A stretch of DNA of 64,000 nucleotides from Gemmatimonadales bacterium (GCA_040901965.1 JBBDYB010000012.1:50087-114086); one strand, 5' to 3'. Shown: positions 32,358 to 48,985, counted from the stretch's first letter. Numbers and translations: made by a program. Notes: generated by a model from the sequence alone, not told the origin.

Positions 32358-32495
32358 AGTATCGGCTCCTCGGCGAGCGCTCGGCAAGAGGTCCACACGC
32401 CTCCGCAGTCTGGCGCATCGCCGGCCCGGGGGCGCCATCGTTTTCACGCGGGGAAGGGCGAATTGCTGCGTCGTCCGAGGCCACGCACAGTGCGT

Positions 32496-32678
32496 TACGT
32501 CAACGCGCCGACGATCGGCGCGGAAGCCCATCTCCCCTTCGGCGGCGTGAAGCAGACCGGCAACGGCCACCGCGAAGGGGGATGGGAGGTCTACGACTTC
32601 TACTGCGAGACCAAGGTCGTGTACGTCGACTACTCGGGGACGTTACAGCGGGCGCAGATCGACACGGAGGTTTCGTAG
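32496..32678 (+). pseudogene. displaced 3-prime fragment of aldehyde dehydrogenase
   Basis: Encodes [60 protein letters not shown]. The intact gene at 28700-28882 encodes [60 protein letters not shown]. By-eye nucleotide identity is roughly 90 percent, with mostly third-position differences. Confidence 0.85.
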
Positions 32679-36391: not shown

Positions 36392-36842
36392 CTAAGGCCT
36401 CCGGGCAGGAAGCAAGTCCCCGGCTGGGTGGTTCGTCAGGTTGACGAGCGCCGTGCCGTCGGCGTTCATCACGTAGACCTCGAAGTTCCCGCCGCGGTCG
36501 CTGTCAAAGGCGATCTTTGAGCCGTTGGGGGACCAGGCAGGAAACGCGTCCTTCGCCGGGTGGTTCGTCAGGTTGACGAGCGCCGTGCCGTCGGCGTTCA
36601 TCACGTAGATTTCCCAGTTGCCGTCGCGTCCAGGTCACGGCGCGGTACGGGAGCTCGTTGCCGGCTGCGTCTTTGACCTTCCCGTCAGCTGTAGCGTCTG
36701 GCCCATCACGATGCCAGCTACCGCGGGCGAGACTTCGACCGAGGCCGGCGGCATAGGCGGCGCGGTGGACTCGTTGCCGCAAGCGACGAGAACGAGTATT
36801 GCGGGGCAAAACAGCCGCGAGATGTGTCCCGACTCTTTCATT
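36392..36842 (-). pseudogene. decayed lipoprotein gene (Big_2 start fused out of frame to PD40/TolB-like repeats)
   Basis: ATG 36842 gives MKESGHISRLFCPAILVLVACGNES..VEVSPAVAGIVMGQTLQLTG. A frameshift then leads to KVKDAAGNELPYRAVTWT. A further shift leads into DGNWEIYVMNADGTALVNLTNHPAKDAFPAWSPNGSKIAFDSDRGGNFEVYVMNADGTALVNLTNHPAGD. Three frames are needed to read it. Confidence 0.6.
36426..36609. repeat. perfect 52-nt direct repeat, 132-nt period
   Basis: GGGTGGTTCGTCAGGTTGACGAGCGCCGTGCCGTCGGCGTTCATCACGTAGA occurs at 36426-36477 and again at 36558-36609. One PD40 blade is 44 aa, which equals 132 nt. Confidence 0.9.
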
Positions 36843-36867: not shown

Positions 36868-39528
36868 CTACGGCTGGCCGGCGACCTTGATCGGCACGTT
36901 GGTGCTCGTGGTCGTGCCGTCGCCGAGCTCCGCGAAGGCGTTGTAACCCCAACAGTACGCGGTCCCGGTCGTGGCGAGGGCGCAGGTATGGTCGGTGCCT
37001 GGCACGACCGCGGAGAACGTGAGCCCACCAGTCACCGCCATGGGGATCGACGTAGAGATGTAGGAGCCATCGCCGAGCTGACCGTACCGGTTATACCCCC
37101 AGCAGTACGCTGCCCCGGTCGTGGCGACGCCGCAGGTGTGCCACCGCCCGCCCGCCAGCGCGAGGAACCCGAGCCCACCGCTCACGGCCGCAGGGGTGAG
37201 CCGGTCGGTGGCGGTGCCGTCGCCTAGCTGACCGTCCGCGTTCCACCCCCAGCAGTACGCCGCCCCGCCGGTGGTCACACCACACGTATGAGTCCCGCCG
37301 GCGCTCACAGCAGCGAACGTCAGCTCACCGCTCACAGCCACGGGCATGGCGCTGGACGTGGTCGTGCCGTTGCCGAGCTGACCGCTGCCGTTGTCACCCC
37401 AGCAGTACGCTGCCCCACTAATCGTGAGGCCGCAGCTGTGCGTCCTGCCGGTACTCACTGACGAAAGGGTCAGGCCGCCCGCCACGAGCACGGGGACGGT
37501 GCTACAGGCCAGGACCGATGGGGTCCCGCCGCGTGTGGAACACGATTCCGGACCTGTCGTCACCCCGACGCCGAGCTGGCCCTCGTAGTTACGCCCCCAG
37601 CAATACGCCGCTCCGCTCGTGGTGACGCCGCAGGTGTGCGCATCTCCGGTGCTCACCACAGCGAACGCCAGCCCGCCTGTCACGGCCGCCGGGACCCGGC
37701 TGTCGTCGGGCGAGTCGATGCCGATGCCAAGCCGGCCGTAAAGGTTGTCCCCCCAGCAGTAGGCCGCTCCGCTGGTCGTGACGCCGCACGTATGAAAGAA
37801 AGTGGCGCTGAGCACGGAGAAGGTGACCCCGCCGGTGACGGCTACGGGGATCAGACGGGAGAACTCCGAGCCGTCGCCGAGCTGCCCATCCTGGTTCCAC
37901 CCCCAGCAGTAGGCTGCCCCGCTTGTGGTGATGCCGCAGCTGTGAAAAGACCCGGCGGTCATTGACCCCAGCTTGAGGACCACCCCCGTGATGGCCGCGG
38001 TATCGCTCACTTCCTCGCTGGTCGCTATCACGGCCGCGGTGCCTGCGCCGACGGCCGTCACCAGCCCGCTCACGCTCACCGTTACCGCCGCGGTGTTGTC
38101 GCTCGTCCAGGTGATCGGGCGCCCGAGGAGTATCCTGCCGTTGGCATCCCGGACGGTCGCTGACAGTTGCCTCGTGTACCGCAGCAGCACGCTCGCCGAT
38201 CCCGGGGCGACCGTCACCGACGCGACCGGCACCGCCGCGGTGACCGTCACGGAGGCGGTGCCGCTCGCCGTCCCGGTGGTGGCGGTGATCGTGGCGCTGC
38301 CCTGGCTCACGCCGGTCACCGCCGCGAGTCCCACCCTACCGTCTCCGGGGTCGTACGGCGCGACGGTCGCAACCGTCGGGGCGCTGCTGCTCCAGGTCAA
38401 CGACGGGTACCGGATCAACCGTCCCCGCGCATCCCGAACGGTCGCCGACAGGATGATCGTGTCGCCCCCGGCCCCGACGCTGGCTGGCGTCGGCGAGAGC
38501 ACCACGGACGCCGGAGTCCCTGTCGTGACGACGACCCGTGCGAACCCCGTCAACCCGTTGAGCGTCGCCGTAACGATGTAAAAGCCGGGCGCCAGCGCCG
38601 TGACCAGCCCGGTCGAGGAGACCGTGAGGGCGCTCGAATCGTTCGAGGACCACGCGAGGGGCTGCGTTATCAGCATGTTGCCCGCGGCGTCCCGCACCGT
38701 GGCCGTCATCTGGTACGTCGCCCCCTCGGTGATGGACACCGTGTCGGGCGACAGCATGATCGATGCGGCCGGGCCGGTCGAGGATTGCCCCGTCGTGAAC
38801 TCTACCGTGACGCCCGCTTCGAGGGCGTCGCCCTCGAGGTCCCGCACCGCCGCGGTCACGACCAGCCGGTAGTCGGTGTTCGGGTCGAGGGGCGCGGCAG
38901 GGATGAACGCGGCGGCCGCCCCGCTCCCCTGGAGCAGGCGCACTGCGCCCGCGACCGCAGTCGTGCCGCGGAACAGTTGCACCGACGAGCTCGTGAGCGT
39001 GCCGCCGTCGACCGGCTCACTGAAGACGATGACCAGCGCGGCGTTGAGCGGGACATCAGTCTTCCTGCGCGGAGGATTGGTCCGGACCACGATCGGCGGT
39101 CGGGCAGCAGTCACCACGACGCGCTCTTGGTACAGCGTGCCGCCGCCGGCGTCCGTCACAACGACCTCAATGGAGTCCCCTGTCTGCGCTTCGACCGGTA
39201 CCGGATCGAACCCGCCGTCCAGCACCGCGGTGGTGAGCGCCACGGTGTCGCCGATCCGGCGAATGGCCGCGCGGCTGCCCGTGGGGACGGTGCCGGGTAG
39301 TAGCGACACGTACACCACTTCGTCCTCCGCGCTGCTCGCCAGCGCAAGCGACGCCCCTGTGCTTGCGACGAGGCTGCCGGTCGGTACGGGATCCGAAACG
39401 ATCAAGCCTTCGACCGCGCACTCGGAGCACGGACCGCCGGGACTGTCGGAGCACCCGCCGAGCCATCCCAGCGTGCTCAAGAGCGCGAGGGCGATCGCTT
39501 GCGCGCAGCGGGACCGGCGAGTCGACAT
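36868..39528 (-). CDS. lipoprotein: Ig-like (Big_5/Big_2) domains + 7-bladed RCC1-like beta-propeller
   Basis: 886 aa with the lipobox GWLGGCSDSPGGP. The central region has Big_2-like segments (e.g. VVLSPTPASVGAGGDTIILSATVRDARGRLI..LTWSSS). The C-terminal part has seven H-x-C-G-x-T-x(2)-G-x-A-Y-C-W-G-x-N-x(2)-G-Q-L-G-D-G repeats. Confidence 0.88.
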   Translation of the reverse strand: MSTRRSRCAQAIALALLSTLGWLGGCSDSPGGPCSECAVEGLIVSDPVPTGSLVASTGASLALASSAEDEVVYVSLLPGTVPTGSRAAIRRIGDTVALTTAVLDGGFDPVPVEAQTGDSIEVVVTDAGGGTLYQERVVVTAARPPIVVRTNPPRRKTDVPLNAALVIVFSEPVDGGTLTSSSVQLFRGTTAVAGAVRLLQGSGAAAAFIPAAPLDPNTDYRLVVTAAVRDLEGDALEAGVTVEFTTGQSSTGPAASIMLSPDTVSITEGATYQMTATVRDAAGNMLITQPLAWSSNDSSALTVSSTGLVTALAPGFYIVTATLNGLTGFARVVVTTGTPASVVLSPTPASVGAGGDTIILSATVRDARGRLIRYPSLTWSSSAPTVATVAPYDPGDGRVGLAAVTGVSQGSATITATTGTASGTASVTVTAAVPVASVTVAPGSASVLLRYTRQLSATVRDANGRILLGRPITWTSDNTAAVTVSVSGLVTAVGAGTAAVIATSEEVSDTAAITGVVLKLGSMTAGSFHSCGITTSGAAYCWGWNQDGQLGDGSEFSRLIPVAVTGGVTFSVLSATFFHTCGVTTSGAAYCWGDNLYGRLGIGIDSPDDSRVPAAVTGGLAFAVVSTGDAHTCGVTTSGAAYCWGRNYEGQLGVGVTTGPESCSTRGGTPSVLACSTVPVLVAGGLTLSSVSTGRTHSCGLTISGAAYCWGDNGSGQLGNGTTTSSAMPVAVSGELTFAAVSAGGTHTCGVTTGGAAYCWGWNADGQLGDGTATDRLTPAAVSGGLGFLALAGGRWHTCGVATTGAAYCWGYNRYGQLGDGSYISTSIPMAVTGGLTFSAVVPGTDHTCALATTGTAYCWGYNAFAELGDGTTTSTNVPIKVAGQP

Positions 39529-39532
39529 GGCG

Positions 39533-42115
39533 TTAAGGCTGCCCCACGACCTTCACCGGTACGTTGCTGTTGGTCGTCGTGCCACTACCGAGCTGGCCGG
39601 AGGCGTTCCAGCCCCAGCAGTAGGCCGCCCCGGCGCTCGTGACCCCGCAGGTGTGACCGTAGCTTGTGACGAGGCCGCTGAAGCCTAAGCCCCCGGAGAC
39701 GGGGACCGGCGTGGAGCTCCTCGTGGTCGAAGCGTTGCCGAGCTGGCCGTAGTCGTTCCAGCCCCAGCAGTACGCCGTCCCGGCGCTCGTGCGCCCGCAC
39801 GTGTGGCCGCGGCTCATGCCCGTGGCGAGGGCGCTGAAGCTCAGGCCCCCCGAGACGGCGACCGGCGTTGCGCTGTTCGTGGTCGAGCCGTCGCCGAGCT
39901 GGCCGTGGTCGTTGGGGCCCCAGCAGTAGGCAGCTCCAACACCAGTGAGCCCGCAGGCGTGCCAGCCGCCGGCGGCGATGTCGTTGAAGTTGAGCCCACC
40001 GGTCACGGCCACGGGAACGGTGCTGCAGGAAACGCTTACGCCGTCGGGACGACAGGTCTCGGGACCTGTCGCTGTGCCGACCCCGAGTTCGGCATCCTCG
40101 TTCCGCCCCCAGCAATAGACTGCCCCGGCGCTGGTCAGCCCGCAGGTGAACCCCCCGCCCGCGGCGAGGGCGCGGAAAATGAAGCTCCCCGACACAGCCA
40201 CCGGAATGGAGCTATTCGTAGTCGAGCCGTTACCGAGCGCGCCGAGGCCGTTCCAGCCCCAGCAGTAGACCGCCCCGGCGCTGGTCAGCCCGCAGCTGTG
40301 ATACAAGCCTGCGGCGAGGGCGCTGAAGCTCACGCCCCCGGCCACGGCCACTGGAACTGGGCTGGAGGTCGTCGAGACGTCGCCGAGCTGCCCCTGCCCG
40401 TTGTAGCCCCAACAGTAGGCTGCGCCGGCGGAGGTGAGACCGCAGGCGTGAGCTTCGCCCGTGGCGAGAGCGCTGAAGCTGAAGCCCCCGGAGACGGCGA
40501 CCGGCCCGCCGTAAATGGCGCCCCAGCAGTAGGCTGCCCCGCTCGTGGTGAGACCGCATGTGTACCCCCGTCCGGCGCTCACTGACCCGAAGGTGATCCT
40601 CCCCACCGTGATGACCGCGGTATCGCTCCTGCTCTCGCTCGTCGCGATCACCGACACTGACCCGGTGCCCACTCCCATCACGAGCCCGTTCGCGTCCACC
40701 GTCGCCACGGCTCCATTGCCACTCGTCCACGAAATCGGGCGACCGACGAGCAGCGTGCCGTTCGCATCGCGGGTCGTGGCGGATAGGTGCGTGGTTCCGT
40801 CTACCACAATGGCTGCCGACTCGGGGCTCACGGTCACGAACGCGACCGGCGGAGGCGCGCCAAGGCCGACGACTTGCACCGGCTCGCTGCTGTTGATCGT
40901 CGTGCCGTTGCCGAGTTGGCCGTAACGATTGTCTCCCCAGCAGTACGTCGTGCCGCCCTGTGTCACGCCGCAGGTAGTCTGTCCACCCGCGCTCAGGGCC
41001 GCGAACCTGAGCCCGCCCGCGACGGGTACGGGCCTCGTGCTGCACGGCGTCTGCTGATAGCATGCTTCCTTCTCCGGTCCATTGGCGTCCCCGGTACCGA
41101 GCTGACCGTCTGAGTTGGATCCCCAGCAGTACGCCGCCCCGTTTGTGGTGAGACCGCAGCTGTGCCCGGCGCTGGTCACGGAGGAGAATGTGAGGCCACC
41201 GATCACGGCAACTGGAACCAAACTGGACGTAGTGGAGCCGTCCCCGAGCCCACCCGCACCATTCGGCCCCCAGCAGTACGCGGCGCCGCTGCCGGTCACG
41301 CCGCAGCGATTGCTGAGGCTCGTAAACGTGAGCCCGCCTGCGACGGCGACAGGGACCGAGCTGTAGCTGGCGGTCGAGCCGGTGCCGAGCAGCCCGGATT
41401 CGTTGTCGCCCCAACAGTAGGCGGTCCCGCTCGTGGTGAGACCACAGGTATGAAAGAGGCCAGCGGTCACCGCGGCGAAGCTGAGCCCGCCCGCGACCGC
41501 CACGGGCACGGTGCGGACGGGCCAACCGTTTTGGACCTCGTCGCCGCTGGTGGTGCCATCACCCAGTTGGCCGAAGCGATTATTCCCCCAGCAGTAGACT
41601 GCTCCGCTCGCGGTGAGACCGCACGCGTGACCGGGGCCGAAACCGTCGCCGATGGTCACAGCGTAGAACTGGTGCCCACCGCGCACGGCTGCGGGGGCCG
41701 AACTGGACGACGACGCCTCCAGAGACCCCCAGCAGTACGGTGCCGCCGTTGTGGTGAGACCGCAGCTCACAAAATTCCCGGCGGTCACCGCGGAGAACGT
41801 GAGCCCACCGGTCACGGCCACGGGGACCGAGCTGGAGGCGGTCGACCCGTCGCCGAGCGGACCCAAACCCCAGCAGTACACCTTGCCGCTCGCGGTCAGG
41901 CTGCAGGTCTTGAGGCCGCCGGCGCTCACTGACAGGAAGGAGCTCGTCGGCTCTGGCGGGATGATCGGGCCGCCGGGGGAATCGCTCGAGCAGCCGCCGA
42001 GCCACCCTACTGCGCTCAACACCCCGAGGGCGATCCCCGCTCGCACGAATCCCGTCGCGTATGGCACGGCCCCGTGATACGGACGGGCCTGGCCCGGCTG
42101 CTCAGGGTGATTCAT
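39533..42115 (-). CDS. lipoprotein: two 7-bladed RCC1-like beta-propellers separated by a Big_2 domain
   Basis: 860 aa with the lipobox GWLGGCSSDSPGGP. There are 14 YCWG-containing RCC1-like blades arranged 7 + 7. The central Big_2-like segment is VTVSPESAAIVVDGTTHLSATTRDANGTLLVGRPISWTS. The ATG overlaps the CHAT gene stop (ATGA). Confidence 0.88.
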   Translation of the reverse strand: MNHPEQPGQARPYHGAVPYATGFVRAGIALGVLSAVGWLGGCSSDSPGGPIIPPEPTSSFLSVSAGGLKTCSLTASGKVYCWGLGPLGDGSTASSSVPVAVTGGLTFSAVTAGNFVSCGLTTTAAPYCWGSLEASSSSSAPAAVRGGHQFYAVTIGDGFGPGHACGLTASGAVYCWGNNRFGQLGDGTTSGDEVQNGWPVRTVPVAVAGGLSFAAVTAGLFHTCGLTTSGTAYCWGDNESGLLGTGSTASYSSVPVAVAGGLTFTSLSNRCGVTGSGAAYCWGPNGAGGLGDGSTTSSLVPVAVIGGLTFSSVTSAGHSCGLTTNGAAYCWGSNSDGQLGTGDANGPEKEACYQQTPCSTRPVPVAGGLRFAALSAGGQTTCGVTQGGTTYCWGDNRYGQLGNGTTINSSEPVQVVGLGAPPPVAFVTVSPESAAIVVDGTTHLSATTRDANGTLLVGRPISWTSGNGAVATVDANGLVMGVGTGSVSVIATSESRSDTAVITVGRITFGSVSAGRGYTCGLTTSGAAYCWGAIYGGPVAVSGGFSFSALATGEAHACGLTSAGAAYCWGYNGQGQLGDVSTTSSPVPVAVAGGVSFSALAAGLYHSCGLTSAGAVYCWGWNGLGALGNGSTTNSSIPVAVSGSFIFRALAAGGGFTCGLTSAGAVYCWGRNEDAELGVGTATGPETCRPDGVSVSCSTVPVAVTGGLNFNDIAAGGWHACGLTGVGAAYCWGPNDHGQLGDGSTTNSATPVAVSGGLSFSALATGMSRGHTCGRTSAGTAYCWGWNDYGQLGNASTTRSSTPVPVSGGLGFSGLVTSYGHTCGVTSAGAAYCWGWNASGQLGSGTTTNSNVPVKVVGQP

Positions 42116-45100
42116 CTACCGCTCACGAGAGTGAACCCCGCCCAGAAGAACGGGTGCGCCGTCCGCGGATCGCGCGCCGCCGCCCGCTGCGCTTGGGCGA
42201 GCGCCTCCGCCTCCGGCCGTCCAGCGGCGAGCTCCGTGTAAAACCGCTCCATGAACCGCGCCGTCGCCAGATCCTGAACGGGCCACAACGTCGCGAGCAC
42301 GTTGGACGCACCCGCGAAGAGGAACGCCTGCGCGAGCCCGACCCAGTCGTCACCCGCGGGCACGTCAGCGAGCGCCCCCGCGGCAAGACCCGTCTGACAC
42401 GCGCTCAACACCAGGAGCCGCGCGTTGAGCGTCAGCCCGAACACCTCGTGTACTTCGAGCCGCCCATCCTCCCCGCCACCCGCGGCAAGCTCGACGAAGG
42501 AAAACAGCGGGTTGTGCTTGTTCAGAACGCCATAGCTGGCGAGGTGGATAATGCTCTGCTCGGGCGCGAGCGCGCGGAACTCACGCTCCGTCGCAGTGGG
42601 GCCGGTGAGAACCCGCGCGCGGGCGCCGTGAAGCCGGCCGATGGCGGCGACCTCTGCCTGGGAGCCTGGCAGCGCTGCGGCACGGGGAGCGAGCGCCAGC
42701 ACGCCGCCCCCGACGGGCCGCGCCGGCCGGCCACGCAACCGCAGCCATACCGATGCCGATGGCACGTACTGGATCACATAGCGCTCGATGAGGAGCCGTT
42801 CCGGCGGTCCCGGCCGCACGAGCGCCGCGAAAGGGAGGTAGTGGAGCTCGACGTGGGGGGCAATCAGCAGGCGCCGCTTGCCGGCCAGGAGACCGCTCGC
42901 TTCCACCGGCGCGACCAAATGCCCGAACAACCGACGCAGCGGTGCGCGCCACGCTTGTCGCGCGGCTCCCTCCGTAGGGCTGCCCAGCGTGCCACGCGAA
43001 AAATCTACGAGCCCCGCGATCGTACTGCGTGGAACGTTGAGATCCAGCGCCGCAATGCTGTCCGCGGTGACGACGAAGACGATCGTTGTCGAGTCGCCGA
43101 GGAGGTACTCGAGGAGCGCTTCGTCAGGCGCGAGCGCGCGCATCACGTCGCGTACCGGCGCGATCTCGCCGCGCACGAAGGCAGAGTACGAGGGATTCGC
43201 CTCGCGCATCTCCACGAGCAGCTCGCTGTACGCATCTTGGGTGCGGGCGAGGGCTTCACGGGTCGCAGCGGCCGCCGTCCCGGCGAGCCCCGGGCCGCGC
43301 AGCTCCCCCCCCGAGTCGGCGTCGCCTGGAGTCTCGAGCTGTCGGGTCAGCTCCGTGATCCGCCGGCGGAGATCCTGTTCGCGGCCCGTTACCCCTCGAC
43401 TCGCCTCGCTACCTGGCGCGACGCGTCCGCGGGCCAGTAAATCGAGCATCTGCCTCGCGCGCAGCCGCTCGCTCGCCTCGAACGCTGCTCTCGGCTGTCC
43501 GAGCGCTCGCTGGATCAGCGCGAGCTCGATGTACACCTCCCACTTGTCGGCAAGAAACGCCGCCCGGCGCTCTTCGACCGTCAGGCCGGCGGATACGCTC
43601 TCGATCTCTTGAATGGCCGAGTTGAGTTCTGCGGCCGCCTCCGCGAGCGCCCCTCTGCTCCGCAAGGCGCCCGCGAGCCCAGCATGGAGCTGCCAGGCGA
43701 TGTCCGGCGCGGGACGCGCGCCCAGCCGCGCGAGCCCGCGTTGGTACAGGGACTCCGCGGTGAGCGGCAGACCAGCCTGGGTCTCGAGATCGCCCAGCGC
43801 GCCGAGCGCGGCGGCCTCACCTCCCGCGTCGCCGAGCGCGCGCAGCGTGTCGCGGGCTTGAGTGAGCACGCGGCGTGCTCCTGCGGTGTCGCCGCTGGAC
43901 CGCTCGGCGTGGGCGATAAGCAAACGGGTCAGGGCTGACGCACGCCGGTCGCGGGATGCGCGGTGCGCCTGGAGCGCGAGCTCGAAGGCGGCCTGTGCCC
44001 GCGGGTAGCTCTCGCGCATCAGCAGGACGAGTCCCAATCCTTGCTGCGCCGCCGCGCGCGTCTCGTCCTCTCCGGCGCGACGGGCGAGCCGCGCGGCCCG
44101 CGCGTAGTGCCGCTCCGCTTCCGGCAGCCGATTGAACTGCACCGCGAGGTCGGCTCGGCCCAGCGCGAGACCGGCACTTCGCTCTGCGCCCGCGAGCGCC
44201 TCTGCCCGTTGCAACTGGTGCCGCGCTCCTTGCAAGTCGCCGATCGCGGCGCGCGCGGTCGCAAGATCGCTCCGCACGGCGATCTCCTCGGCGGCCGGAC
44301 CAGTTTGCCGATAGATGCCTACAGCCTCCGTCAACGAGGCGACGGCCGAGGGATAATCACCCCGGCGCATGGCGAGGAGGCCGAGGTTGTGGAGCACCGA
44401 TGCCGCGTCGGCTCGATTCCCGCGCTCCCGATAGATCGCGAGCGCCTCGCGATACCGTGCTGCGGCTTCCGCGTAATCGCTCTCGACGCTCGCGATGTTG
44501 CCCAGGTTGACCAGGTTCGCAGCGGCCGGCTCGGCCCGGCCCGCCGCGCGGTTCGCCGCCAGCGCCGCCTCGTAGGCGCGGCGCGCGCCCGCGAAGTCGC
44601 CCAGCTCTTCGGCGACGAGGCCGAGGTTGTTCCGGTCGGATTCCAGGCCGCGGGCGTCCCCGGTTCGCTGCCGCAGCGCGCTGGCTTGCGCGTACAGCTC
44701 GCTCGCCCCCCGCAGGTCGCCCCGGTCCTTCGCTACGCTGCCTAACGAACCCACGGCGTTTCCCGCTGTGCGATAGTCGCCGATTCGCTCCGCGAGGTCA
44801 CGTGATCGGACGAGATACGCCGCCGCGCTATCGTACTCCTGCGCCATATAGAATCCGGCGCCGAGGTTGCCAAGCGCGGCCGCGATCCCGGCGGTGTCAT
44901 CGCGCGCCTCGAAGCGCCGCAGGCTCTCGCGCCATGTCCGCATCGCCGTGTCGATCCCACGCGTTCCCAGCGCCGCGTTACCGGCGCGACGCACACTGTC
45001 GGCCGCAACCTTCGCGAGCTGGTCAGCCGGAGACAGCGACCGAAACCGCGTCACCTGTCGCACGAAGAACGAGTCACGCCAGGCGACGGCGTAGGCGCCG

Positions 45101-45318
45101 GCGAGGCGCTCCGCGGCAGCCAGGGACGCGCCGGCCGCAGCGTCAGCGAGAAGGTGTCGGAGGGCTTCACGCGTCTCGTCTGGCCATTGGCGCGTCCGCT
45201 CAACGAGTACCGAGTCCGAGCCGTCTCGGACCAGGGTACGCAGCTCGGCGACGTTCTGCACTGACTGCGTCATACTGGCGGCGAGAGCCAGGCACCGAAT
45301 TGCAAGCGCGCCGATCAT
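42112..45318 (-). CDS. TPR-repeat CHAT-domain (caspase-like) protease, probably exported
   Basis: A long TPR array (repeated ..A..Y..AL.I....GD..G.A..L.NLG..) fills the N-terminal two-thirds. The C-terminal CHAT domain has a His context (IIHLASYGV) and a Cys context (LLVLSACQTG), and ends FFWAGFTLVSGR. ATG 45318 gives MIGALAIRCLALAAS and overlaps the anti-sigma stop (ATGA). GTG 45375 would add RLRSRDLPHRRWRT, a basic n-region. Confidence 0.88.
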   Translation of the reverse strand: MIGALAIRCLALAASMTQSVQNVAELRTLVRDGSDSVLVERTRQWPDETREALRHLLADAAAGASLAAAERLAGAYAVAWRDSFFVRQVTRFRSLSPADQLAKVAADSVRRAGNAALGTRGIDTAMRTWRESLRRFEARDDTAGIAAALGNLGAGFYMAQEYDSAAAYLVRSRDLAERIGDYRTAGNAVGSLGSVAKDRGDLRGASELYAQASALRQRTGDARGLESDRNNLGLVAEELGDFAGARRAYEAALAANRAAGRAEPAAANLVNLGNIASVESDYAEAAARYREALAIYRERGNRADAASVLHNLGLLAMRRGDYPSAVASLTEAVGIYRQTGPAAEEIAVRSDLATARAAIGDLQGARHQLQRAEALAGAERSAGLALGRADLAVQFNRLPEAERHYARAARLARRAGEDETRAAAQQGLGLVLLMRESYPRAQAAFELALQAHRASRDRRASALTRLLIAHAERSSGDTAGARRVLTQARDTLRALGDAGGEAAALGALGDLETQAGLPLTAESLYQRGLARLGARPAPDIAWQLHAGLAGALRSRGALAEAAAELNSAIQEIESVSAGLTVEERRAAFLADKWEVYIELALIQRALGQPRAAFEASERLRARQMLDLLARGRVAPGSEASRGVTGREQDLRRRITELTRQLETPGDADSGGELRGPGLAGTAAAATREALARTQDAYSELLVEMREANPSYSAFVRGEIAPVRDVMRALAPDEALLEYLLGDSTTIVFVVTADSIAALDLNVPRSTIAGLVDFSRGTLGSPTEGAARQAWRAPLRRLFGHLVAPVEASGLLAGKRRLLIAPHVELHYLPFAALVRPGPPERLLIERYVIQYVPSASVWLRLRGRPARPVGGGVLALAPRAAALPGSQAEVAAIGRLHGARARVLTGPTATEREFRALAPEQSIIHLASYGVLNKHNPLFSFVELAAGGGEDGRLEVHEVFGLTLNARLLVLSACQTGLAAGALADVPAGDDWVGLAQAFLFAGASNVLATLWPVQDLATARFMERFYTELAAGRPEAEALAQAQRAAARDPRTAHPFFWAGFTLVSGR

Positions 45319-46106
45319 GGTCCGCCACCGACGATGCGGAAGGTCGCGAGATCGGAGGCGGCCCAGCGCATCCACACAGCCTGCGCCTCAACCCGCCAGA
45401 AGTAGGGCACGCGCGGTTGGAGCCTGACCGAGTCGGGAAGGGCTGCGGACGTGTCCGCCGTCTCGACGGTCCACAGAACCGACGCCTCGCGGTCGTAGAG
45501 GCGCACCCGGTAGCGCTCAGCCCCGGGGACGCCGGACCAGACCAGTCGGTCCACGCGAGCCACTGCCGCGCCGGGCGGCGGCCTGATCGGCACGGGTGCG
45601 ATCGTACTGGTGACGGTTGGCTCCCGGAGCCCGGGTGTCGGGCCGTCGTCGCGGCCACGCGGAAGAACCAGCAAGACAAGGGCGGCCGCTGCGGCGAGGC
45701 CCAGCGGGATCGACCAGCGGCGCCACCGCCGTGCGGGGGCGGAGGGAGCCGCTGCCTCCGCAACGAAGCGAGCGGTTGCCTTCACGAGAGAGCGGCAGCG
45801 AGCGCAGATCAACAGATGGGTGACGACGGAAGCTCGCTGACCTGCGTTCAGGCGTCCGTCGACGAAATCGGCAAGCACGAGCTCGTCCGGGCAGCCCGGC
45901 GTCTCGATCCGGCGCTCGAGCAGCGCCGGGCCGCGCAGCAACCCGGCGGCCTGCTGTAACTCTTCGATCTCGGTCCGGCAAATCGCACAGCCATCTACGT
46001 GTTGAGCCGACGCCGCGTCTTCCGCGCCGAGCGCATAGGGCACCAGGAGTTCGGGGGCGGGGTGGGGAGAGGTCACACGCCGCATCCGCTTGATGGCTTC
46101 GAGCAT
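45315..46106 (-). CDS. membrane anti-sigma factor with two zf-HC2 (H-x3-C-x2-C) motifs
   Basis: 263 aa with HVDGCAICRTE and HLLICARCRSL. The TM helix is WSIPLGLAAAAALVLLVLP. A ~100-aa C-terminal extracytoplasmic domain follows (VWSGVPGAERYRVRLYD...FWRVEAQ). Confidence 0.8.
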   Translation of the reverse strand: MLEAIKRMRRVTSPHPAPELLVPYALGAEDAASAQHVDGCAICRTEIEELQQAAGLLRGPALLERRIETPGCPDELVLADFVDGRLNAGQRASVVTHLLICARCRSLVKATARFVAEAAAPSAPARRWRRWSIPLGLAAAAALVLLVLPRGRDDGPTPGLREPTVTSTIAPVPIRPPPGAAVARVDRLVWSGVPGAERYRVRLYDREASVLWTVETADTSAALPDSVRLQPRVPYFWRVEAQAVWMRWAASDLATFRIVGGGP

Positions 46107-46152
46107 CGCGGACGTGTTACGGACACGCGGTGCCGATCTGCTCGCCGGCGAT

Positions 46153-46926
46153 TCATAGATCGCCCCCGCGGATGCCAGCCTGCGTCAGATGAGTGCGGAT
46201 CGCGCCCAGCGCTCGATAGACCCGGTTATAGACGGTTTTTGTGTTGGGGTAGCCGAGGACGTGCGCCACTTGCTCGGCCGGCATGTCATCGACGACGTAG
46301 AGTTGGACCGCAAGCCGATCGTCGGGGGGGAGGGCGTCCAGGGCACGGGCGAGCAATACGCGCTGTTCGGCTGCCACGGCGGGATCGGGCGGGGCGTCCG
46401 GAAGCGCTGGCGGTGGCACGGCGAGCTCGGCGGCAAGATGGCCGCGACGGCCGGCGCGAGCGGCACGGTACGTGGCGCTCAGTTCGTTGAGAAACTCGCC
46501 GAACGCCAGGTCCGGCGCTTCGCGGGACCGGAGCAGCTCGTAGGCTTCGACATGTGATCGTCCATCGATAAAGACGTACTCGAAGATGCGCTGCCGCAGT
46601 GGAGGCAGCGCGGCTGCCATTGTCGAGAGGCGGCGACGCCCATCCCGATGACGGAACCAGTCGATGGTGAGATTGTGGACGACGGCGACGAGCAACGTGG
46701 AGAACGGGCGGTCGGGATCGAGTCGGGCGGCGCAGCGACGCAGGCGGGTGAAATCGTCCTCGCGCAGCGCTTCGCAGACGCGTGCGAAGACATCCATGAC
46801 GTCGTCGGCTTCGTCTGTGTAGTGACGGATCGCGCCGAAGATGAGGCGGCGGTAGCGCTCGATGAAGAGATCCCATGCGGCCTCGGGATCGCCCGATTCG
46901 AGCGGAGCGATCCACGGTTCCACCAT
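46153..46926 (-). CDS. ECF-type RNA polymerase sigma factor (unusually long, 257 aa)
   Basis: The sigma-2 region is LFIERYRRLIFGAIRHY..DVMDVFARVCEAL...LLVAVVHNLTIDWFRHR. The sigma-4 region is LPPDDRLAVQLYVVDDMPAEQVAHVLGYPNTKTVYNRVYRALGAIR. An extra sigma-4-like segment lies between them. GGAGGAA lies upstream of the ATG. Confidence 0.85.
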   Translation of the reverse strand: MVEPWIAPLESGDPEAAWDLFIERYRRLIFGAIRHYTDEADDVMDVFARVCEALREDDFTRLRRCAARLDPDRPFSTLLVAVVHNLTIDWFRHRDGRRRLSTMAAALPPLRQRIFEYVFIDGRSHVEAYELLRSREAPDLAFGEFLNELSATYRAARAGRRGHLAAELAVPPPALPDAPPDPAVAAEQRVLLARALDALPPDDRLAVQLYVVDDMPAEQVAHVLGYPNTKTVYNRVYRALGAIRTHLTQAGIRGGDL

Positions 46927-46952: not shown

Positions 46953-46981
46953 GATATAGCCCGGCGCACCGCTGGGGTCAA
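46953..46981 (-). promoter_or_regulatory. sigma-70-type promoter upstream of the ECF sigma gene
   Basis: Read on the minus strand: TTGACC (46981-46976), 17 nt, TATATC (46958-46953). A further 26 nt containing GGAGGAA lead to the ATG at 46926. Confidence 0.4.
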
Positions 46982-47312
46982 ACGCCAGGCGTGCAAACGA
47001 GCCGTTCTGCAATGAATTGGTGACGCGCGTCACCCGCCTGGCACTAGCGTCCGGACGTGGCGCACGAGTCGGTGGTGGTCGTTCTCGCGACCGGCGGAAC
47101 AACGCTCGAGCGTGATGCGCTCGACACGCTTCCGGAGACGGCGGTCACGTGGATCCGCATCGAGCGCGAGGGACGGGTGGCATGTCTCGCCGCCCGGGTG
47201 CGTCATGCCGACCCGACACTCGAATTCCGAGTCCGGGTTCGGCAATGGGCGGCAGCCCGGGGATGGGGTGTGACTGTTGCGCCGTGCGGTCCGGCTCGCT
47301 AACGTAAATCAC

Positions 47313-48092
47313 ATGCATGACTTGGGTGGCTCCTTGGCAGAGGGCGGCGCGACCGACACGCCCCGAGTGCCGACAGCCCCCCCCGCCGAATCCCGGCGCT
47401 CGGTGCTGGCCCGCTGGTTCGACAGTTGGATGCGTTCGCTGGGCATGGCGCTGGTGCTCTTCCTCATCATCCGCACCTTCCTGCTCGAAGCTTTCCAAAT
47501 CCCCTCAGGCTCCATGGAGCGTACGCTGCTCGCGGGGGATTTTTTGTTCGTGAATAAGGCGGTCTACGGCGCCCAGATTCCCGGCACGAATGCGCGGCTG
47601 CCCGGCTTCAACACGCCGCGCCGCGGTGACGTGATCGTCTTCGCCTACCCGAAGGACCCGACGCTCAGCTATGTCAAGCGCGTGATCGGCGGCCCGGGCG
47701 ACGTCGTCGAGATGCGCCTCGGCCAGGTGTACGTGAACGGCCGCGCGCTCGAGGAGCCGTACGTGCAACGCGTCGACCCGCTGCACGACGGGTTCGATCC
47801 CGAGTTCACCTGGCAGCGGGAGTATTTGGTGCACCGGACCGCTGAGCAGCGGCGTCGCTATCACCCGACGCGCGATACGTGGGGCCCGCTGCGCGTGCCG
47901 AGCGGGAAGTATTTCGTGTTGGGGGACAACCGTGATAATTCGGCCGATTCGCGGTATTGGGGCTTTGTGGATGAGAGCGCCGTCAAGGGACGGCCGCTGG
48001 TGGTCTATTTCAGCTATGATCGGGGAACGCGCGATCCGCTCCCCTGGTTGACGGACATTCGCTGGAGCCGGCTCGGTTCGCTGATTCGCTGA
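47313..48092 (+). CDS. lepB: signal peptidase I
   Basis: Contains IPSGSMERTL (catalytic Ser), YVKRVIGGPGD (Lys box) and GDNRDNSADSRYWGFV. ATG 47313 is preferred over GTG 47277. Confidence 0.92.
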   Translation: MHDLGGSLAEGGATDTPRVPTAPPAESRRSVLARWFDSWMRSLGMALVLFLIIRTFLLEAFQIPSGSMERTLLAGDFLFVNKAVYGAQIPGTNARLPGFNTPRRGDVIVFAYPKDPTLSYVKRVIGGPGDVVEMRLGQVYVNGRALEEPYVQRVDPLHDGFDPEFTWQREYLVHRTAEQRRRYHPTRDTWGPLRVPSGKYFVLGDNRDNSADSRYWGFVDESAVKGRPLVVYFSYDRGTRDPLPWLTDIRWSRLGSLIR

Positions 48093-48127
48093 GTGGTAGC
48101 TTCCTATCGGAGAGGAGTGGCCACCCC

Positions 48128-48985
48128 ATGCAACTGAACACGGCGAAACGCGCATCCTTCGACGAGGGATCTCTGGATCAGTATCTGCGGGAAATCAGCC
48201 AGTATCCGCTCATTACGCGCGAGGAAGAGGTCACGCTCGCGCAGCGGATCAAGCAGCAGGATCCGGAGGCGCTCGACAAGCTCGTCCGGTCGAACCTGCG
48301 GTTCGTCGTATCGGTCGCCAAGAAGTATCAGAACCAGGGCGTGTCGCTCTCCGACCTGATCAACGAGGGGAACCTCGGTCTGATCCGCGCCGCCCACAAG
48401 TTCGACGAGACCAAGGGCATCAAGTTCATCTCGTATGCAGTGTGGTGGATCCGCCAGGCCATCCTCCAGGCGCTCGCCGAGCAGTCGCGCATCGTGCGCG
48501 TGCCGCTGAACCGCGCCGGCACATTGCACCGCATCGGCAAACGCTCGGCCTCCCTTCTACAAGAATTGGGGCGCGAGCCCACCGTCGAAGAGATCGCCGA
48601 AGGGATGGACATCTCCGAGGAGGAAGTCGCCAAGACGCTGTCCATCTCCCAGGCTCATCTTTCGCTCGACGCGCCGCTGACGCCAGGCGAAGACAACAAG
48701 CTGCTCGACTACCTGCCCGACACCACCAATCCGGGCCCCGACGACGAGATCTTCGAGCACGCCCTCACCGAGTCGATCGAGTCGGTGCTGGCCACGCTCA
48801 AAGAGCGCGAGGCACGCATCCTCCGGCTGTATTTCGGGCTCGAAGGCCAGGAGCCGATGACACTGGAGGAGATCGGCTCGCAGCTGGGGATCACCCGCGA
48901 GCGGGTCCGCCAGCTAAAAGAGAAGGCGCTGGCGAGATTGCGCCACGTCTCGAGGGCGAGAGCGCTGGAAAGCTTCCTTTCGTAA
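48128..48985 (+). CDS. RpoD/SigA-family sigma-70 factor (compact form, regions 1.2-4.2)
   Basis: Contains YLREISQYPLITREEEVTLA, NLRFVVSVAKKY, DLINEGNLGLIRAAHKFD, FISYAVWWIRQAI and EEIGSQLGITRERVRQLKEKAL. Confidence 0.92.
   Translation: MQLNTAKRASFDEGSLDQYLREISQYPLITREEEVTLAQRIKQQDPEALDKLVRSNLRFVVSVAKKYQNQGVSLSDLINEGNLGLIRAAHKFDETKGIKFISYAVWWIRQAILQALAEQSRIVRVPLNRAGTLHRIGKRSASLLQELGREPTVEEIAEGMDISEEEVAKTLSISQAHLSLDAPLTPGEDNKLLDYLPDTTNPGPDDEIFEHALTESIESVLATLKEREARILRLYFGLEGQEPMTLEEIGSQLGITRERVRQLKEKALARLRHVSRARALESFLS

What the first reader, a model, noticed from the sequence alone, without database searches (positions are those of the whole stretch)
42112..46926. Stand-alone ECF sigma / zinc anti-sigma / exported TPR-CHAT protease module (Craspase-like logic without CRISPR)
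Seen in sequence:
- An ECF sigma gene is followed after 46 nt by a single-pass anti-sigma gene.
- The anti-sigma stop overlaps the start of a 1068-aa TPR-CHAT gene (ATGA at 45315-18).
- The CHAT gene in turn overlaps the first RCC1 lipoprotein gene (ATGA at 42112-15).
- The CHAT domain keeps its caspase-type His (IIHLASYG) and Cys (LVLSACQTG).
- Its N-terminus is hydrophobic (MIGALAIRCLALAAS). If the GTG at 45375 is used, a basic, vaguely twin-arginine-like stretch (RLRSRDLPHRRWRT) precedes it, so the protease may be exported.
- The anti-sigma factor has a ~100-aa domain on the far side of its TM helix.

Established knowledge: ECF anti-sigma factors are usually removed by site-1 serine proteases (DegS, PrsW or Prc type) followed by RseP. 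To my knowledge the only worked-out link between a TPR-CHAT protease and an ECF-type sigma factor is the type III-E CRISPR Craspase. There Csx29 cleaves Csx30, which partners with Csx31 and an RpoE-like sigma factor.

This window has no Cas7-11/gRAMP, no CRISPR array and no csx30/31-like gene that I can recognise.

Inference: this could be a CRISPR-independent caspase-like protease that triggers or tunes an ECF response. It might cleave the anti-sigma extracytoplasmic domain, with the TPR array or the co-translated RCC1 propellers serving as the signal receptor.
Basis: partly seen in the sequence, partly recalled or inferred. Interest (0 to 1): 0.8.

Follow-up and report, generated by a model that had tools for sequence, protein, structure and literature searches.

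The report
Split anti-sigma / periplasmic caspase-like protease module
A soil bacterium (Gemmatimonadota) carries a five-gene operon in which a stress sigma factor, its membrane anti-sigma factor, an exported caspase-like TPR-CHAT protease and two beta-propeller lipoproteins are made together; it is a two-piece version of the recently described Myxococcus DdvS/DdvA system, in which protease and anti-sigma factor are separate proteins and could be tested apart.

Summary
On the minus strand, 46926 to 36868, lie an ECF sigma gene, a zinc-binding single-pass anti-sigma gene, a 1068-aa TPR-CHAT gene and two Big/RCC1 lipoprotein genes. The gaps and ATGA overlaps are as described, and the catalytic His925/Cys974 are intact.

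The association is not chance. In 57 non-redundant Gemmatimonadota loci with enough upstream flank, 56 have the anti-sigma homolog and 52 also the sigma. Of 46 loci with both flanks, 41 also have Big/propeller proteins. The 4-nt stop/start overlap recurs in 36 of 42 adjacent pairs.

A sizeable sister clade has the anti-sigma factor and TPR-CHAT fused into one 1230-1370-aa protein that lacks the signal peptide at the junction. This places the protease in the periplasm, physically coupled to the anti-sigma factor.

The closest known system is therefore M. xanthus DdvS/DdvA (anti-sigma with a periplasmic TPR-CHAT; top Foldseek hit), not Craspase.

Most likely mechanism (inferred, not shown): the exported CHAT protease acts as site-1 protease. 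It would cut a conserved, disordered juxtamembrane motif (LREPTVTSTIAP, invariant Arg161) upstream of the anti-sigma factor's Fn3 domain, followed by intramembrane proteolysis.

Verdict: new variant of a known kind, interest 0.6.

The parts
46953..46981 (-). Housekeeping-type promoter-like site TTGACC-N17-TATATC, 27 nt upstream of the sigma start codon
   Evidence: Read. TTGAC-N17/18-TATAT is the only enriched dyad upstream of family-1 sigma genes (6 of 33 sequences, against at most 4 in shuffles). It is visible at the same place in L004, L007, L011, L012, L034, L078, L044, L024 and L059. Function is inferred.
46153..46926 (-). ECF (group 4) sigma factor, 257 aa, with a conserved insertion of about 50 aa (residues 107-156) between sigma2 and sigma4
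   Evidence: Sigma70_r2 and Sigma70_r4_2. TIGR02937 at 69.6 bits against a cut-off of 42.9; no named equivalog or subfamily model reaches its cut-off. Insertion seen in the alignment.
45315..46106 (-). Single-pass zinc-type anti-sigma factor, 263 aa. Layout: tandem cytoplasmic ASD/ZAS bundles, TM helix, disordered linker, periplasmic Fn3 domain
   Evidence: zf-HC2. Invariant H36/C40/C43 and C72/H97/C101/C104. AlphaFold2 model with helices 18-57 and 75-119, helix 135-147, and a beta-sandwich at 175-258 with pLDDT about 90. Foldseek hits are Fn3 domains.
45594..45629 (-). Conserved juxtamembrane linear motif L160-REPTVTSTIAP-171 (family consensus h-R-E/D-x-x-h-T-x-x-x-A-P). Candidate docking or cleavage site
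   Evidence: R161, T166 and P176 are invariant in A2. The motif is kept across the whole divergent family, including the fused proteins. It lies in the predicted-disordered stretch 148-171 with pLDDT <50. A role as cleavage site is inference.
45333..45584 (-). Periplasmic Fn3-like domain of the anti-sigma factor (residues 175-258)
   Evidence: The representative search found 2246 relatives, many of them giant multi-Fn3 proteins, which Pfam calls fn3.
42112..45318 (-). Exported TPR-CHAT protease, 1068 aa. Its ATG overlaps the anti-sigma stop codon (ATGA)
   Evidence: CHAT 1.7e-62 and TPR_12 4.6e-29. AlphaFold2 model with mean pLDDT 81: a long alpha-solenoid (about residues 20-630) followed by an alpha/beta CHAT domain. 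The best PDB fold match is DdvA.
45274..45318 (-). Signal-peptide-like N-terminus MIGALAIRCLALAAS, with small residues at -3 and -1 before MTQS
   Evidence: Conserved hydrophobic N-termini followed by QSP in homologs. Absent at the junction of the fused proteins. No SignalP was available, so cleavage is inferred.
42124..42945 (-). CHAT caspase-fold domain (residues 792-1065), with catalytic His925 (42544-42546) and Cys974 (42397-42399)
   Evidence: Pfam CHAT covers profile positions 2-287 of 289. The dyad is invariant. Coordinates checked.
39533..42115 (-). Lipoprotein A, 860 aa: lipobox LGGC (Cys42), RCC1 propeller, Big_2, RCC1 propeller. Its ATG overlaps the CHAT stop codon (ATGA)
36868..39528 (-). 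Lipoprotein B, 886 aa: lipobox LGGC (Cys26), Big_5, 3x Big_1/Big_2, RCC1 propeller. Starts 4 nt after lipoprotein A
36818..36831 (-). Terminator-like hairpin with T-rich tail, 37 nt after the last gene. Probable end of the operon
   Evidence: This is a pattern match only: 5 such sites found against 3.9 expected in the region.

Best explanation
This is a Gemmatimonadota envelope-signalling operon encoding a two-polypeptide version of the DdvS/DdvA type of ECF control.

**Shown or directly read.**
- Sigma factor, ZAS anti-sigma factor, TPR-CHAT protease and Big/RCC1 lipoproteins are co-transcribed from what looks like a housekeeping-type promoter.
- The genes are translationally coupled.
- The anti-sigma factor exposes a disordered linker plus an Fn3 domain to the periplasm.
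- The TPR-CHAT protein has a conserved signal-like N-terminus and an intact His-Cys dyad.
- In a sister clade the same two proteins are one chain, with TPR-CHAT attached after the periplasmic Fn3 domain.

**Inferred.**
- The exported TPR-CHAT protein sits on the anti-sigma factor's periplasmic part, at the Fn3 domain and/or the conserved linker motif, in a resting state.
- A periplasmic or cell-surface cue activates the dyad. It would be sensed by the TPR solenoid or relayed by the co-made beta-propeller/Ig lipoproteins.
- CHAT then cuts the anti-sigma factor in the conserved juxtamembrane motif. Invariant Arg161 is the candidate P1 residue, by analogy with Arg-specific separase and metacaspases.
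- An RseP-type site-2 protease and cytoplasmic proteases then free the sigma factor.
- The sigma regulon is unknown.
For: **1. Conserved synteny.** The genome scan found 373 relatives, and the best 79 loci are all of Gemmatimonadota type.
- Of 57 non-redundant loci with at least 2.5 kb upstream, 56 have the anti-sigma homolog and 52 have sigma plus anti-sigma.
- Of 46 loci with both flanks, 41 have Big/propeller homologs and 38 have all four components.
- The association survives gene-order permutations: sigma, anti-sigma, RCC1, CHAT; or anti-sigma, CHAT, sigma.
- Independent metagenome contexts at 58-73% CHAT identity show the same picture.

**2. Translational coupling.** ATGA or GTGA stop/start overlap occurs in 36 of 42 adjacent anti-sigma/CHAT pairs and in the window.

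**3. Rosetta-stone fusions.**
- L049:5008-9129 reads ZAS x2, TM, motif, Fn3, TPR, CHAT in one ORF with no hydrophobic segment at the junction. L067 is similar, as are P0385 and P0379/P0394.
- At least 45 clusters of 1230-1345 aa cover 91-98% of a fused query.
- In the fused loci a sigma gene lies directly upstream and Kelch/Big proteins lie downstream.

**4. Export.** Conserved N-terminal hydrophobic peptide in the split forms.

**5. Catalytic competence.** His925 and Cys974 are invariant, and the Pfam CHAT profile is covered almost completely.

**6. Candidate substrate site.** A sequence-conserved motif lies in a predicted-disordered linker between the TM helix and the Fn3 domain.

**7. Precedent.**
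- DdvA is the top PDB fold match (8rw5/8rot, E 3.6e-13).
- For DdvA, removing TPR-CHAT exposes the protein to RseP. CHAT self-cleavage of the TM-proximal linker is the authors' proposed model (PMC11506125).
Against: - No cleavage has been shown for this family. Even for DdvA it is only proposed: dyad mutants had no phenotype in unstimulated cells (PMC11506125).
- The window's own signal peptide has an Arg inside the hydrophobic core and no basic n-region if the ATG start is used. No signal-peptide predictor was available.
- Similarity to DdvA is remote: 18-19% identity, TM-score 0.21-0.26, and no sequence-level hit.
- The conserved linker motif could be a binding strand rather than a scissile site.
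- No ECF-type target promoter or autoregulatory motif was found, so the output of the system is unknown.
- No protein-protein model could be computed.
Confidence: 0.55

Rival explanations
1. TPR-CHAT is a periplasmic partner of the anti-sigma factor, but not its protease. It could act as a guard or co-sensor, like RseB on RseA or an NlpI-type TPR adaptor. Alternatively its proteolytic targets are the co-encoded Big/RCC1 lipoproteins (maturation, shedding or turnover), and the anti-sigma factor is removed by a conventional site-1 protease.
For: - Big/propeller lipoprotein genes are nearly obligatory neighbours (41 of 46 loci) and sometimes sit between the anti-sigma and CHAT genes.
- In the window they are translationally coupled to the CHAT gene.
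- TPR solenoids are typical adaptor modules.
- Many of the lipoproteins end in a conserved VPVKVAGQP tail that could be a TPR ligand.
- In DdvA, catalytic mutants showed no phenotype (PMC11506125).
Against: - The fusions join CHAT to the anti-sigma factor, not to the lipoproteins. The one CHAT-Big_5-Kelch chain, P0440, has a truncated CHAT profile and may be a frameshift artefact.
- A strictly invariant dyad over the whole family argues for catalysis.
- A conserved disordered motif next to the membrane is what a site-1 substrate looks like.
Confidence: 0.22
2. The mechanism is as in the best explanation, but the biological role is that of DdvS/DdvA: a periplasmic sentinel for phage or other invaders. 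It would switch on defence genes located elsewhere in the genome.
For: - DdvA is the nearest solved structure, and its regulon is a CBASS/CRISPR island (PMC11506125).
- Several modules per genome would suit recognition of diverse invaders.
- Ig-like and propeller surface lipoproteins could be phage receptors or decoys.
Against: - No defence gene lies in the 64-kb window.
- PADLOC gives only weak TPR and BovA-like hits.
- The conserved neighbours are lipoproteins, not defence systems.
- The DdvA paper itself notes that only a subset of DdvA-like pairs sit near defence genes.
Confidence: 0.12
3. Craspase-like cytoplasmic logic. A cytoplasmic TPR-CHAT cleaves a cytoplasmic inhibitor of the sigma factor.
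For: There is weak CHAT-domain similarity to Csx29: NCBIfam 27.8 bits, PDB phmmer 1e-4 and Foldseek rank 11 and below.
Against: - The N-terminal export signal is conserved.
- In the fused relatives TPR-CHAT follows the TM helix and the periplasmic Fn3 domain.
- There is no Cas7-11, CRISPR array or Csx30/31.
- The Csx29 model scores far below its cut-off of 300 bits.
Confidence: 0.03

Closest known systems
[quoted passage not shown]
   Same: - An ECF sigma gene next to an anti-sigma gene with an N-terminal HxxxCxxC zinc domain and one TM helix.
- A flexible TM-proximal linker.
- A periplasmic TPR solenoid plus a CHAT domain with a His-Cys dyad.
- DdvA is the best PDB fold match of the window protein.
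- Fused relatives in Gemmatimonadota have the same one-chain layout, with the sigma gene directly upstream.
   Different: - In the window the protease is a separate, signal-peptide-bearing protein.
- The anti-sigma factor keeps its own periplasmic Fn3 domain and has tandem ASD/ZAS modules.
- The sigma factor has a 50-aa insertion.
- Big/RCC1 lipoproteins are part of the operon.
- No CBASS or CRISPR genes are nearby.
- Sequence identity is only about 18%.
- The phylum is Gemmatimonadota. The DdvA paper reported DdvA-like proteins only in Myxococcota and one Comamonas.
- DdvA lacks a three-helix motif of CHAT, whereas here the Pfam CHAT profile is covered almost fully. This was not compared structurally.
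Type III-E CRISPR Craspase (Cas7-11/gRAMP-Csx29 with Csx30, Csx31 and CASP-sigma; PMC10028731)
   Same: A TPR-CHAT protease genetically linked to an ECF-like sigma factor. The protease is allosterically activated and releases a transcriptional response.
   Different: Craspase is cytoplasmic, RNA-guided and CRISPR-associated, and its substrate Csx30 is not a ZAS membrane anti-sigma factor. None of these features is present here.
Canonical regulated intramembrane proteolysis of ECF anti-sigma factors (RseA with DegS/RseP; RsiW with PrsW/RasP; FecR-type cell-surface signalling with Prc/RseP). From established knowledge
   Same: A single-pass anti-sigma factor whose extracytoplasmic part must be removed before site-2 cleavage. 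Accessory periplasmic or outer-membrane proteins deliver the signal.
   Different: The candidate site-1 protease here is a caspase-fold cysteine protease encoded in the same operon, not a serine or metalloprotease. No TonB-dependent receptor is present, and the outer partners are propeller/Ig lipoproteins.
SAVED-CHAT/PCaspase/PCc-sigma and CalpL/CalpT/CalpS cascades of type III CRISPR systems (bioRxiv 10.1101/2023.06.23.546230)
   Same: A protease controls a sigma or anti-sigma module.
   Different: These cascades are cytoplasmic, triggered by cyclic oligoadenylate and linked to defence islands. In CalpL the protease fold is also different.

Membership tests
ECF (group 4) sigma-70 factors | Sigma2 and sigma4 domains only; passes the family model | tested here: met
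   Sigma70_r2 at 26.7 bits and Sigma70_r4_2 at 49.5 bits. TIGR02937 at 69.6 bits against a cut-off of 42.9. It has an extra 50-aa insertion between the domains.
ECF (group 4) sigma-70 factors | Assignment to a numbered ECF group (ECF Hub, Casas-Pastor 2021) with a known activation mode | not testable with these tools
   No ECF-Hub models are available. No NCBIfam equivalog or subfamily model reaches its cut-off. The main text of PMC7826278 has no mention of CHAT or Gemmatimonadetes, and its supplements are not held.
ZAS-type class I anti-sigma factors | Cytoplasmic helical ASD with an H/C-x23-26-H-x3-C-x2-C zinc motif | tested here: met
   C72...H97-x3-C101-x2-C104 is invariant. A second motif, H15...H36-x3-C40-x2-C43, is also present. 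zf-HC2 at 28.8 bits against 22.2. Helical bundles appear in the model. Zinc binding itself was not tested.
DdvA-type TPR-CHAT anti-sigma factors | ZAS domain, TM helix and periplasmic TPR-CHAT in one polypeptide | tested here: not met
   In the window these are two genes (45315-46106 and 42112-45318) with a stop codon and a signal peptide between them. The feature is met in relatives L049, P0385, P0394, P0415 and P0452.
DdvA-type TPR-CHAT anti-sigma factors | CHAT domain on the periplasmic side with a conserved His-Cys dyad | tested here: met
   Dyad invariant. Periplasmic side inferred from the conserved signal peptide and from the topology of the fusions. This is not an experimental localisation.
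DdvA-type TPR-CHAT anti-sigma factors | Structural similarity to DdvA | tested here: inconclusive
   DdvA is rank 1 in Foldseek (E 3.6e-13, 1023 aligned columns), but TM-score is 0.21-0.26 and identity 18-19%. There is no sequence-level hit.
DdvA-type TPR-CHAT anti-sigma factors | Dimeric arrow architecture; CHAT lacking the three-helix motif | not tested
   No multimer prediction or structural superposition tool was available. The Pfam CHAT profile is covered at positions 2-287 of 289, which hints that the motif is present.
DdvA-type TPR-CHAT anti-sigma factors | Controls an adjacent CBASS/CRISPR defence island | tested here: not met
   There are no defence genes in the window. The conserved neighbours are Big/RCC1 lipoproteins.
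Type III-E Craspase (Csx29) | Matches the Csx29 family model; encoded with Cas7-11, a CRISPR array and csx30/csx31 | tested here: not met
   NF041237 scores 27.8 bits against a cut-off of 300. There is no CRISPR-like repeat array. The large ORFs of the window are housekeeping or regulatory genes.
CHAT peptidase domain (PF12770, caspase-hemoglobinase fold) | Family model passed, catalytic His and Cys present | tested here: met
   212 bits against a cut-off of 24. H925 and C974 present. Protease activity was not tested.
Bacterial lipoproteins (the two RCC1/Big proteins) | Signal peptide ending in a lipobox with an invariant Cys | tested here: met
   GWLGGC at Cys42 and Cys26, read. No LipoP-type predictor was run.

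The most novel reading that the evidence does not exclude
Gemmatimonadota use a phylum-wide, paralogously expanded four-component cell-surface signalling system. In it a free periplasmic caspase-fold (CHAT) protease is the dedicated site-1 protease of an Fn3-bearing ECF anti-sigma factor, and beta-propeller/Ig lipoproteins act as the ligand receptors. This would be a class of regulated proteolysis distinct from DegS-, PrsW-, Prc- or autocleavage-based routes. It would also be the evolutionary 'unfused' state of DdvA-type anti-sigma factors.
Probability: 0.35. Interest if true: 0.75.

Novelty: new variant of a known kind. Interest (0 to 1): 0.6.

Why it matters
- **A testable form of an open question.** The idea that a caspase-fold protease starts regulated proteolysis of an ECF anti-sigma factor is so far only a proposal, for a single protein (DdvA). 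There protease and substrate are one chain, and the trigger is unknown. Here protease and substrate are separate, so binding, cleavage-site mapping and dyad mutants can be tested in trans.
- **Natural controls.** The family contains both split and fused forms.
- **Wider distribution.** TPR-CHAT-linked ECF control extends from Myxococcota to Gemmatimonadota, an abundant but poorly studied soil phylum. Several copies per genome suggest that it is a major sensory route there.
- **Possible role for an orphan protein class.** It points to a possible role for the many bacterial RCC1/Kelch-Ig lipoproteins.

Tried and rejected
1. **Tat export or the upstream GTG start (45375).** The RR stretch is not a conserved Tat motif. 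The apparent conservation of the extension is explained by the overlapping, conserved C-terminus of the anti-sigma factor (WMRW...), and the fusions join at the ATG position.
2. **ECF-type autoregulatory promoter.** Dyad enumeration on 54 upstream regions gave only housekeeping-like TTGAC-N17-TATAT (family 1) or TTGCG-N17-TAGGTT-like sites (family 2). No GGAAC/CGT-type motif appeared.
3. **Defence-system membership.** PADLOC returned only weak TPR and BovA-like hits. There is no CRISPR array.
4. **Sequence-level link to DdvA or DdvS.** phmmer and a profile search against PDB found TPR proteins and Csx29 but not DdvA. The sigma factor hits only E. coli RpoE-like chains. Only the fold search recovered DdvA.
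5. **Literature on ECF groups with CHAT neighbours.** Nothing was found in the main text of Casas-Pastor 2021 and its supplements are not held. A prior tabulation there cannot be excluded.
6. **PDB sequence search with the anti-sigma factor.** It gave only spurious ETV6/TEL hits.
7. **The triad outside Gemmatimonadota.** All named hits are Gemmatimonadota. A few MAGs labelled Chloroflexi or 'Bacillati ANGP1' carry identical or near-identical modules and are probably mis-binned. More distant CHAT hits (Thermoanaerobaculia, 31% identity) were not examined for context.

Full report
**1. Observation**

The window is about 68% G+C. Names on homologs place it in Gemmatimonadales, phylum Gemmatimonadota. 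Five ORFs lie head to tail on the minus strand:

| Gene | Coordinates | Length |
|---|---|---|
| ECF sigma | 46153-46926 | 257 aa |
| Anti-sigma | 45315-46106 | 263 aa |
| TPR-CHAT | 42112-45318 | 1068 aa |
| Lipoprotein A | 39533-42115 | 860 aa |
| Lipoprotein B | 36868-39528 | 886 aa |

- Spacing is 46 nt, then a 4-nt overlap (ATGA), then another 4-nt overlap (ATGA), then a 4-nt gap. The overlaps were read directly.
- Pfam and NCBIfam confirm the domains: Sigma70_r2/r4_2 (TIGR02937 above cut-off), zf-HC2, TPR_12 plus CHAT (212 bits), and RCC1/WD40_RLD with Big_1, Big_2 and Big_5.
- His925 (IIHLASYG) and Cys974 (LVLSACQTG) are present.
- A housekeeping-type promoter-like site, TTGACC-N17-TATATC, lies at 46981-46953.
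- A weak terminator-like hairpin follows the last gene at 36831-36818.

**2. The association is not chance**

- CHAT homologs at 58-73% identity, taken from independent metagenome and MAG contigs, have the same neighbours.
- A scan of one genome per GTDB species found 373 relatives. The best 79 loci were fetched.
- The window's five proteins were searched with phmmer against all ORFs of these loci:
  - Of 57 non-redundant loci with at least 2.5 kb upstream, 56 contain the anti-sigma homolog and 52 contain sigma plus anti-sigma on the same strand. The four without sigma have lipoprotein genes inserted, so the sigma gene probably lies beyond the flank.
  - Of 46 loci with both flanks, 41 contain Big/propeller homologs and 38 contain all four components.
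- Gene order can change: sigma, anti-sigma, lipoproteins, CHAT; or anti-sigma, CHAT, sigma. The association persists.
- Several genomes carry two or three such modules.
- The stop/start overlap between the anti-sigma and CHAT genes (ATGA or GTGA, in frame) is found in 36 of 42 adjacent pairs.

**3. Anatomy of the anti-sigma factor**

An alignment of 29 homologs (A2) and an AlphaFold2 model give the following layout:
- Two cytoplasmic helical bundles, each with HxxxCxxC. The first is H36/C40/C43 with H15 upstream. The second is H97/C101/C104 with C72 upstream at the classical ZAS spacing.
- A TM helix at about residues 131-148.
- A stretch at 148-171 predicted disordered (pLDDT <50).
- A confident beta-sandwich at 175-258.

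The beta-sandwich is an Fn3 fold. Foldseek hits are Fn3 domains. A search of 1.84 billion representative proteins with residues 150-263 found 2246 relatives. Many are giant multi-repeat proteins that Pfam calls fn3.

Inside the 'disordered' stretch lies a strongly conserved linear motif, L160-R-E-P-T-V-T-S-T-I-A-P171.
- Arg161 is invariant, and the pattern h-R-E/D-x-x-h-T-x-x-x-A-P is kept in even the most divergent family members.
- Sequence conservation without predicted structure, next to the membrane, is what a docking or cleavage site looks like.
- This last step is inference.

**4. Anatomy and location of the TPR-CHAT protein**

- The model (mean pLDDT 81) shows an alpha-solenoid from about residue 20 to 630, a helical connector, and an alpha/beta CHAT domain. 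The loops around His925 and Cys974 have low confidence.
- The first 15-20 residues are hydrophobic and are followed by (A/G)-x-x-Q-S-P in nearly all homologs. The score is 97 of 116, against 3 of 116 for an internal control stretch.
- The window's copy has small residues at -3 and -1 (A-A-S|M), but an Arg in the hydrophobic core and no basic n-region.
- The database gene call for this protein (P0001, 1053 aa) starts 15 codons later and so removes this peptide.
- The upstream GTG start with its RR stretch is not supported (section 'tried and rejected').

**5. Natural fusions**

In L049 (Gemmatimonadaceae MAG) a single 1374-codon ORF reads: ZAS, ZAS, TM, LRDATITASAAP motif, Fn3, a polar linker of about 30 aa, TPR, CHAT. 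No hydrophobic segment occurs at the junction.

The same layout is seen elsewhere:
- L067.
- P0385, 1311 aa.
- P0379/P0394, 1371 aa.
- The truncated P0373 and P0349.

A search with P0394 found at least 45 clusters of 1230-1345 aa covering 91-98% of the fused query. They come from Gemmatimonadaceae, Gemmatimonadales and Longimicrobiales. In two fused loci a 253-256-aa sigma gene lies directly upstream, and Kelch, Big_1 or Big_5 proteins lie downstream.

Loss of the signal peptide at the junction argues against sequencing frameshifts. These fusions show two things. The two window proteins act together, and TPR-CHAT lies on the periplasmic side of the membrane.

**6. What is known**

- M. xanthus DdvA is a ZAS anti-sigma factor whose roughly 900-residue periplasmic part is a TPR-CHAT module.
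- Cryo-EM shows a dimer with resting His-Cys dyads facing the TM-proximal linker of the partner.
- Removing TPR-CHAT makes DdvA a substrate of RseP.
- The authors propose signal-induced CHAT self-cleavage as the site-1 step. The trigger is unknown and cleavage has not been observed (PMC6061681, PMC11506125).
- They found DdvA-like proteins only in Myxococcota and one Comamonas.

DdvA (8rw5/8rot) is the top PDB fold match of the window protein, ahead of separase and Csx29. The similarity is remote: 18-19% identity, low TM-score, and no sequence-level hit. The Csx29 family model scores 27.8 bits against a cut-off of 300.

The window holds no CRISPR array, cas gene or recognisable defence gene. 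Its flanks are housekeeping:
- LepB, a group-3-like sigma, YajQ and MiaB on one side.
- An Fn3 protein, aldehyde dehydrogenase and a sigma-54 activator on the other, partly syntenic with L004.

**7. Mechanism**

Best supported: a split DdvA-type system.
- Sigma, anti-sigma, protease and lipoproteins are made together from a promoter that looks housekeeping-type. TTGAC-N17-TATAT is the only enriched dyad upstream of related sigma genes.
- The lipoproteins are therefore more likely part of the sensor than merely its output.
- The exported TPR-CHAT would dock on the anti-sigma Fn3 domain or linker.
- A periplasmic or surface cue, sensed by the TPR solenoid or the propeller/Ig lipoproteins, would activate the dyad.
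- CHAT would cut the conserved juxtamembrane motif, with Arg161 as candidate P1. RseP-type and cytoplasmic proteases would then release the sigma factor.

Shown: synteny, coupling, fusions, dyad conservation, export signal, motif conservation, Fn3 fold.
Inferred: docking, cleavage, the cleavage site, the signal, and the involvement of RseP. The regulon is unknown.

Rivals:
- Guard or adaptor role, or lipoprotein processing (0.22).
- Same mechanism but an antiphage role (0.12).
- Cytoplasmic Craspase-like logic (0.03).

**8. Novelty and score**

This is not a new kind of system, because a TPR-CHAT-linked ECF anti-sigma factor is published. It is a distinct variant:
- Protease and anti-sigma factor are separate proteins.
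- The anti-sigma factor has its own Fn3 domain and tandem ZAS modules.
- The sigma factor has an inserted domain.
- Beta-propeller/Ig lipoproteins are obligatory partners.
- There is no defence context.
- It occurs in a different phylum, with both split and fused forms and several paralogs per genome.

I found no paper describing it. The ECF-Hub group tables could not be read, so an earlier tabulation of the gene context cannot be excluded.

Its main value is that it makes the 'caspase-fold site-1 protease' hypothesis testable in trans. Interest 0.6.

Noticed in passing
window 46459-46608 (sigma residues 107-156): The sigma factor and its close relatives ('family 1', 250-263 aa) carry a conserved insertion of about 50 aa between sigma2 and sigma4: LPPLRQRIFEYVFIDGRSHVEAYELL... 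It resembles a degenerate sigma4-type helix-turn-helix. A second sigma family in the same kind of module (about 175-236 aa as extracted, some truncated) lacks it.
   Followed up: partly
window 45978-46001 and 45795-45818: The anti-sigma factor has two tandem HxxxCxxC (ZAS-like) helical modules. Many relatives have only one. Tandem forms were seen only with the long, insertion-bearing sigma factors, but several long sigmas pair with single-motif anti-sigma factors. This hints that the extra ASD may bind the extra sigma segment.
   Followed up: partly
window 47019-47034: A perfect 16-bp palindrome, GGTGACGCGCGTCACC, lies 37 nt upstream of the -35-like hexamer. It sits in the divergent intergenic region between the sigma operon and lepB, and could be an operator.
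   Followed up: no
window 36868-36894 and 39533-39559; loci L001-L084: Both lipoproteins end in ...VPVKV(V/A)GQP. The same C-terminal tail ends 21 of 87 module-associated Big/RCC1 proteins in other loci. It could be a recognition tail, for example a TPR ligand, or simply the end of the propeller.
   Followed up: partly
P0440 (1940 aa, JGI metagenome): One relative reads TPR, then CHAT (profile truncated at position 244 of 289), then Big_5, then a Kelch propeller, all in one chain. This is either a frameshift artefact or a fusion that includes the propeller/Ig partner. It also shows that Kelch propellers can replace RCC1 propellers in the module.
   Followed up: partly
window 45274-45318; protein P0001: The database gene call for the CHAT protein (1053 aa) starts at the internal Met16 (MTQSV...). 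It therefore omits the conserved signal-like peptide and the ATGA coupling.
   Followed up: yes
L020, L021, L023: MAGs labelled Chloroflexi or 'Bacillati bacterium ANGP1' carry modules identical or nearly identical to Gemmatimonadota ones. In L021 the module ORF coordinates (offset by a constant 2000 nt) and hit E-values match those of L001-L003 (except the last lipoprotein ORF, which is cut off by the end of L021). These contigs are probably mis-binned.
   Followed up: no
L014/L054/L062, L051/L067, L063/L075, L040/L058, L030/L070: Single genomes carry two or three paralogous modules. L054 is a CHAT gene with no sigma, anti-sigma or lipoprotein homolog within 6 kb.
   Followed up: no
window 47277-48985: Divergently upstream of the operon lie a signal peptidase I gene (Peptidase_S26) and a 285-aa sigma-70 family gene with regions 1.2, 2, 3 and 4. 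The same pair flanks the module in L004.
   Followed up: no
window 34681-36189 (-) and 31809-32642 (-): Downstream of the operon lie a 502-aa protein with two Fn3 domains and, further on, a Uma2-family putative endonuclease. No link to the module was established.
   Followed up: no
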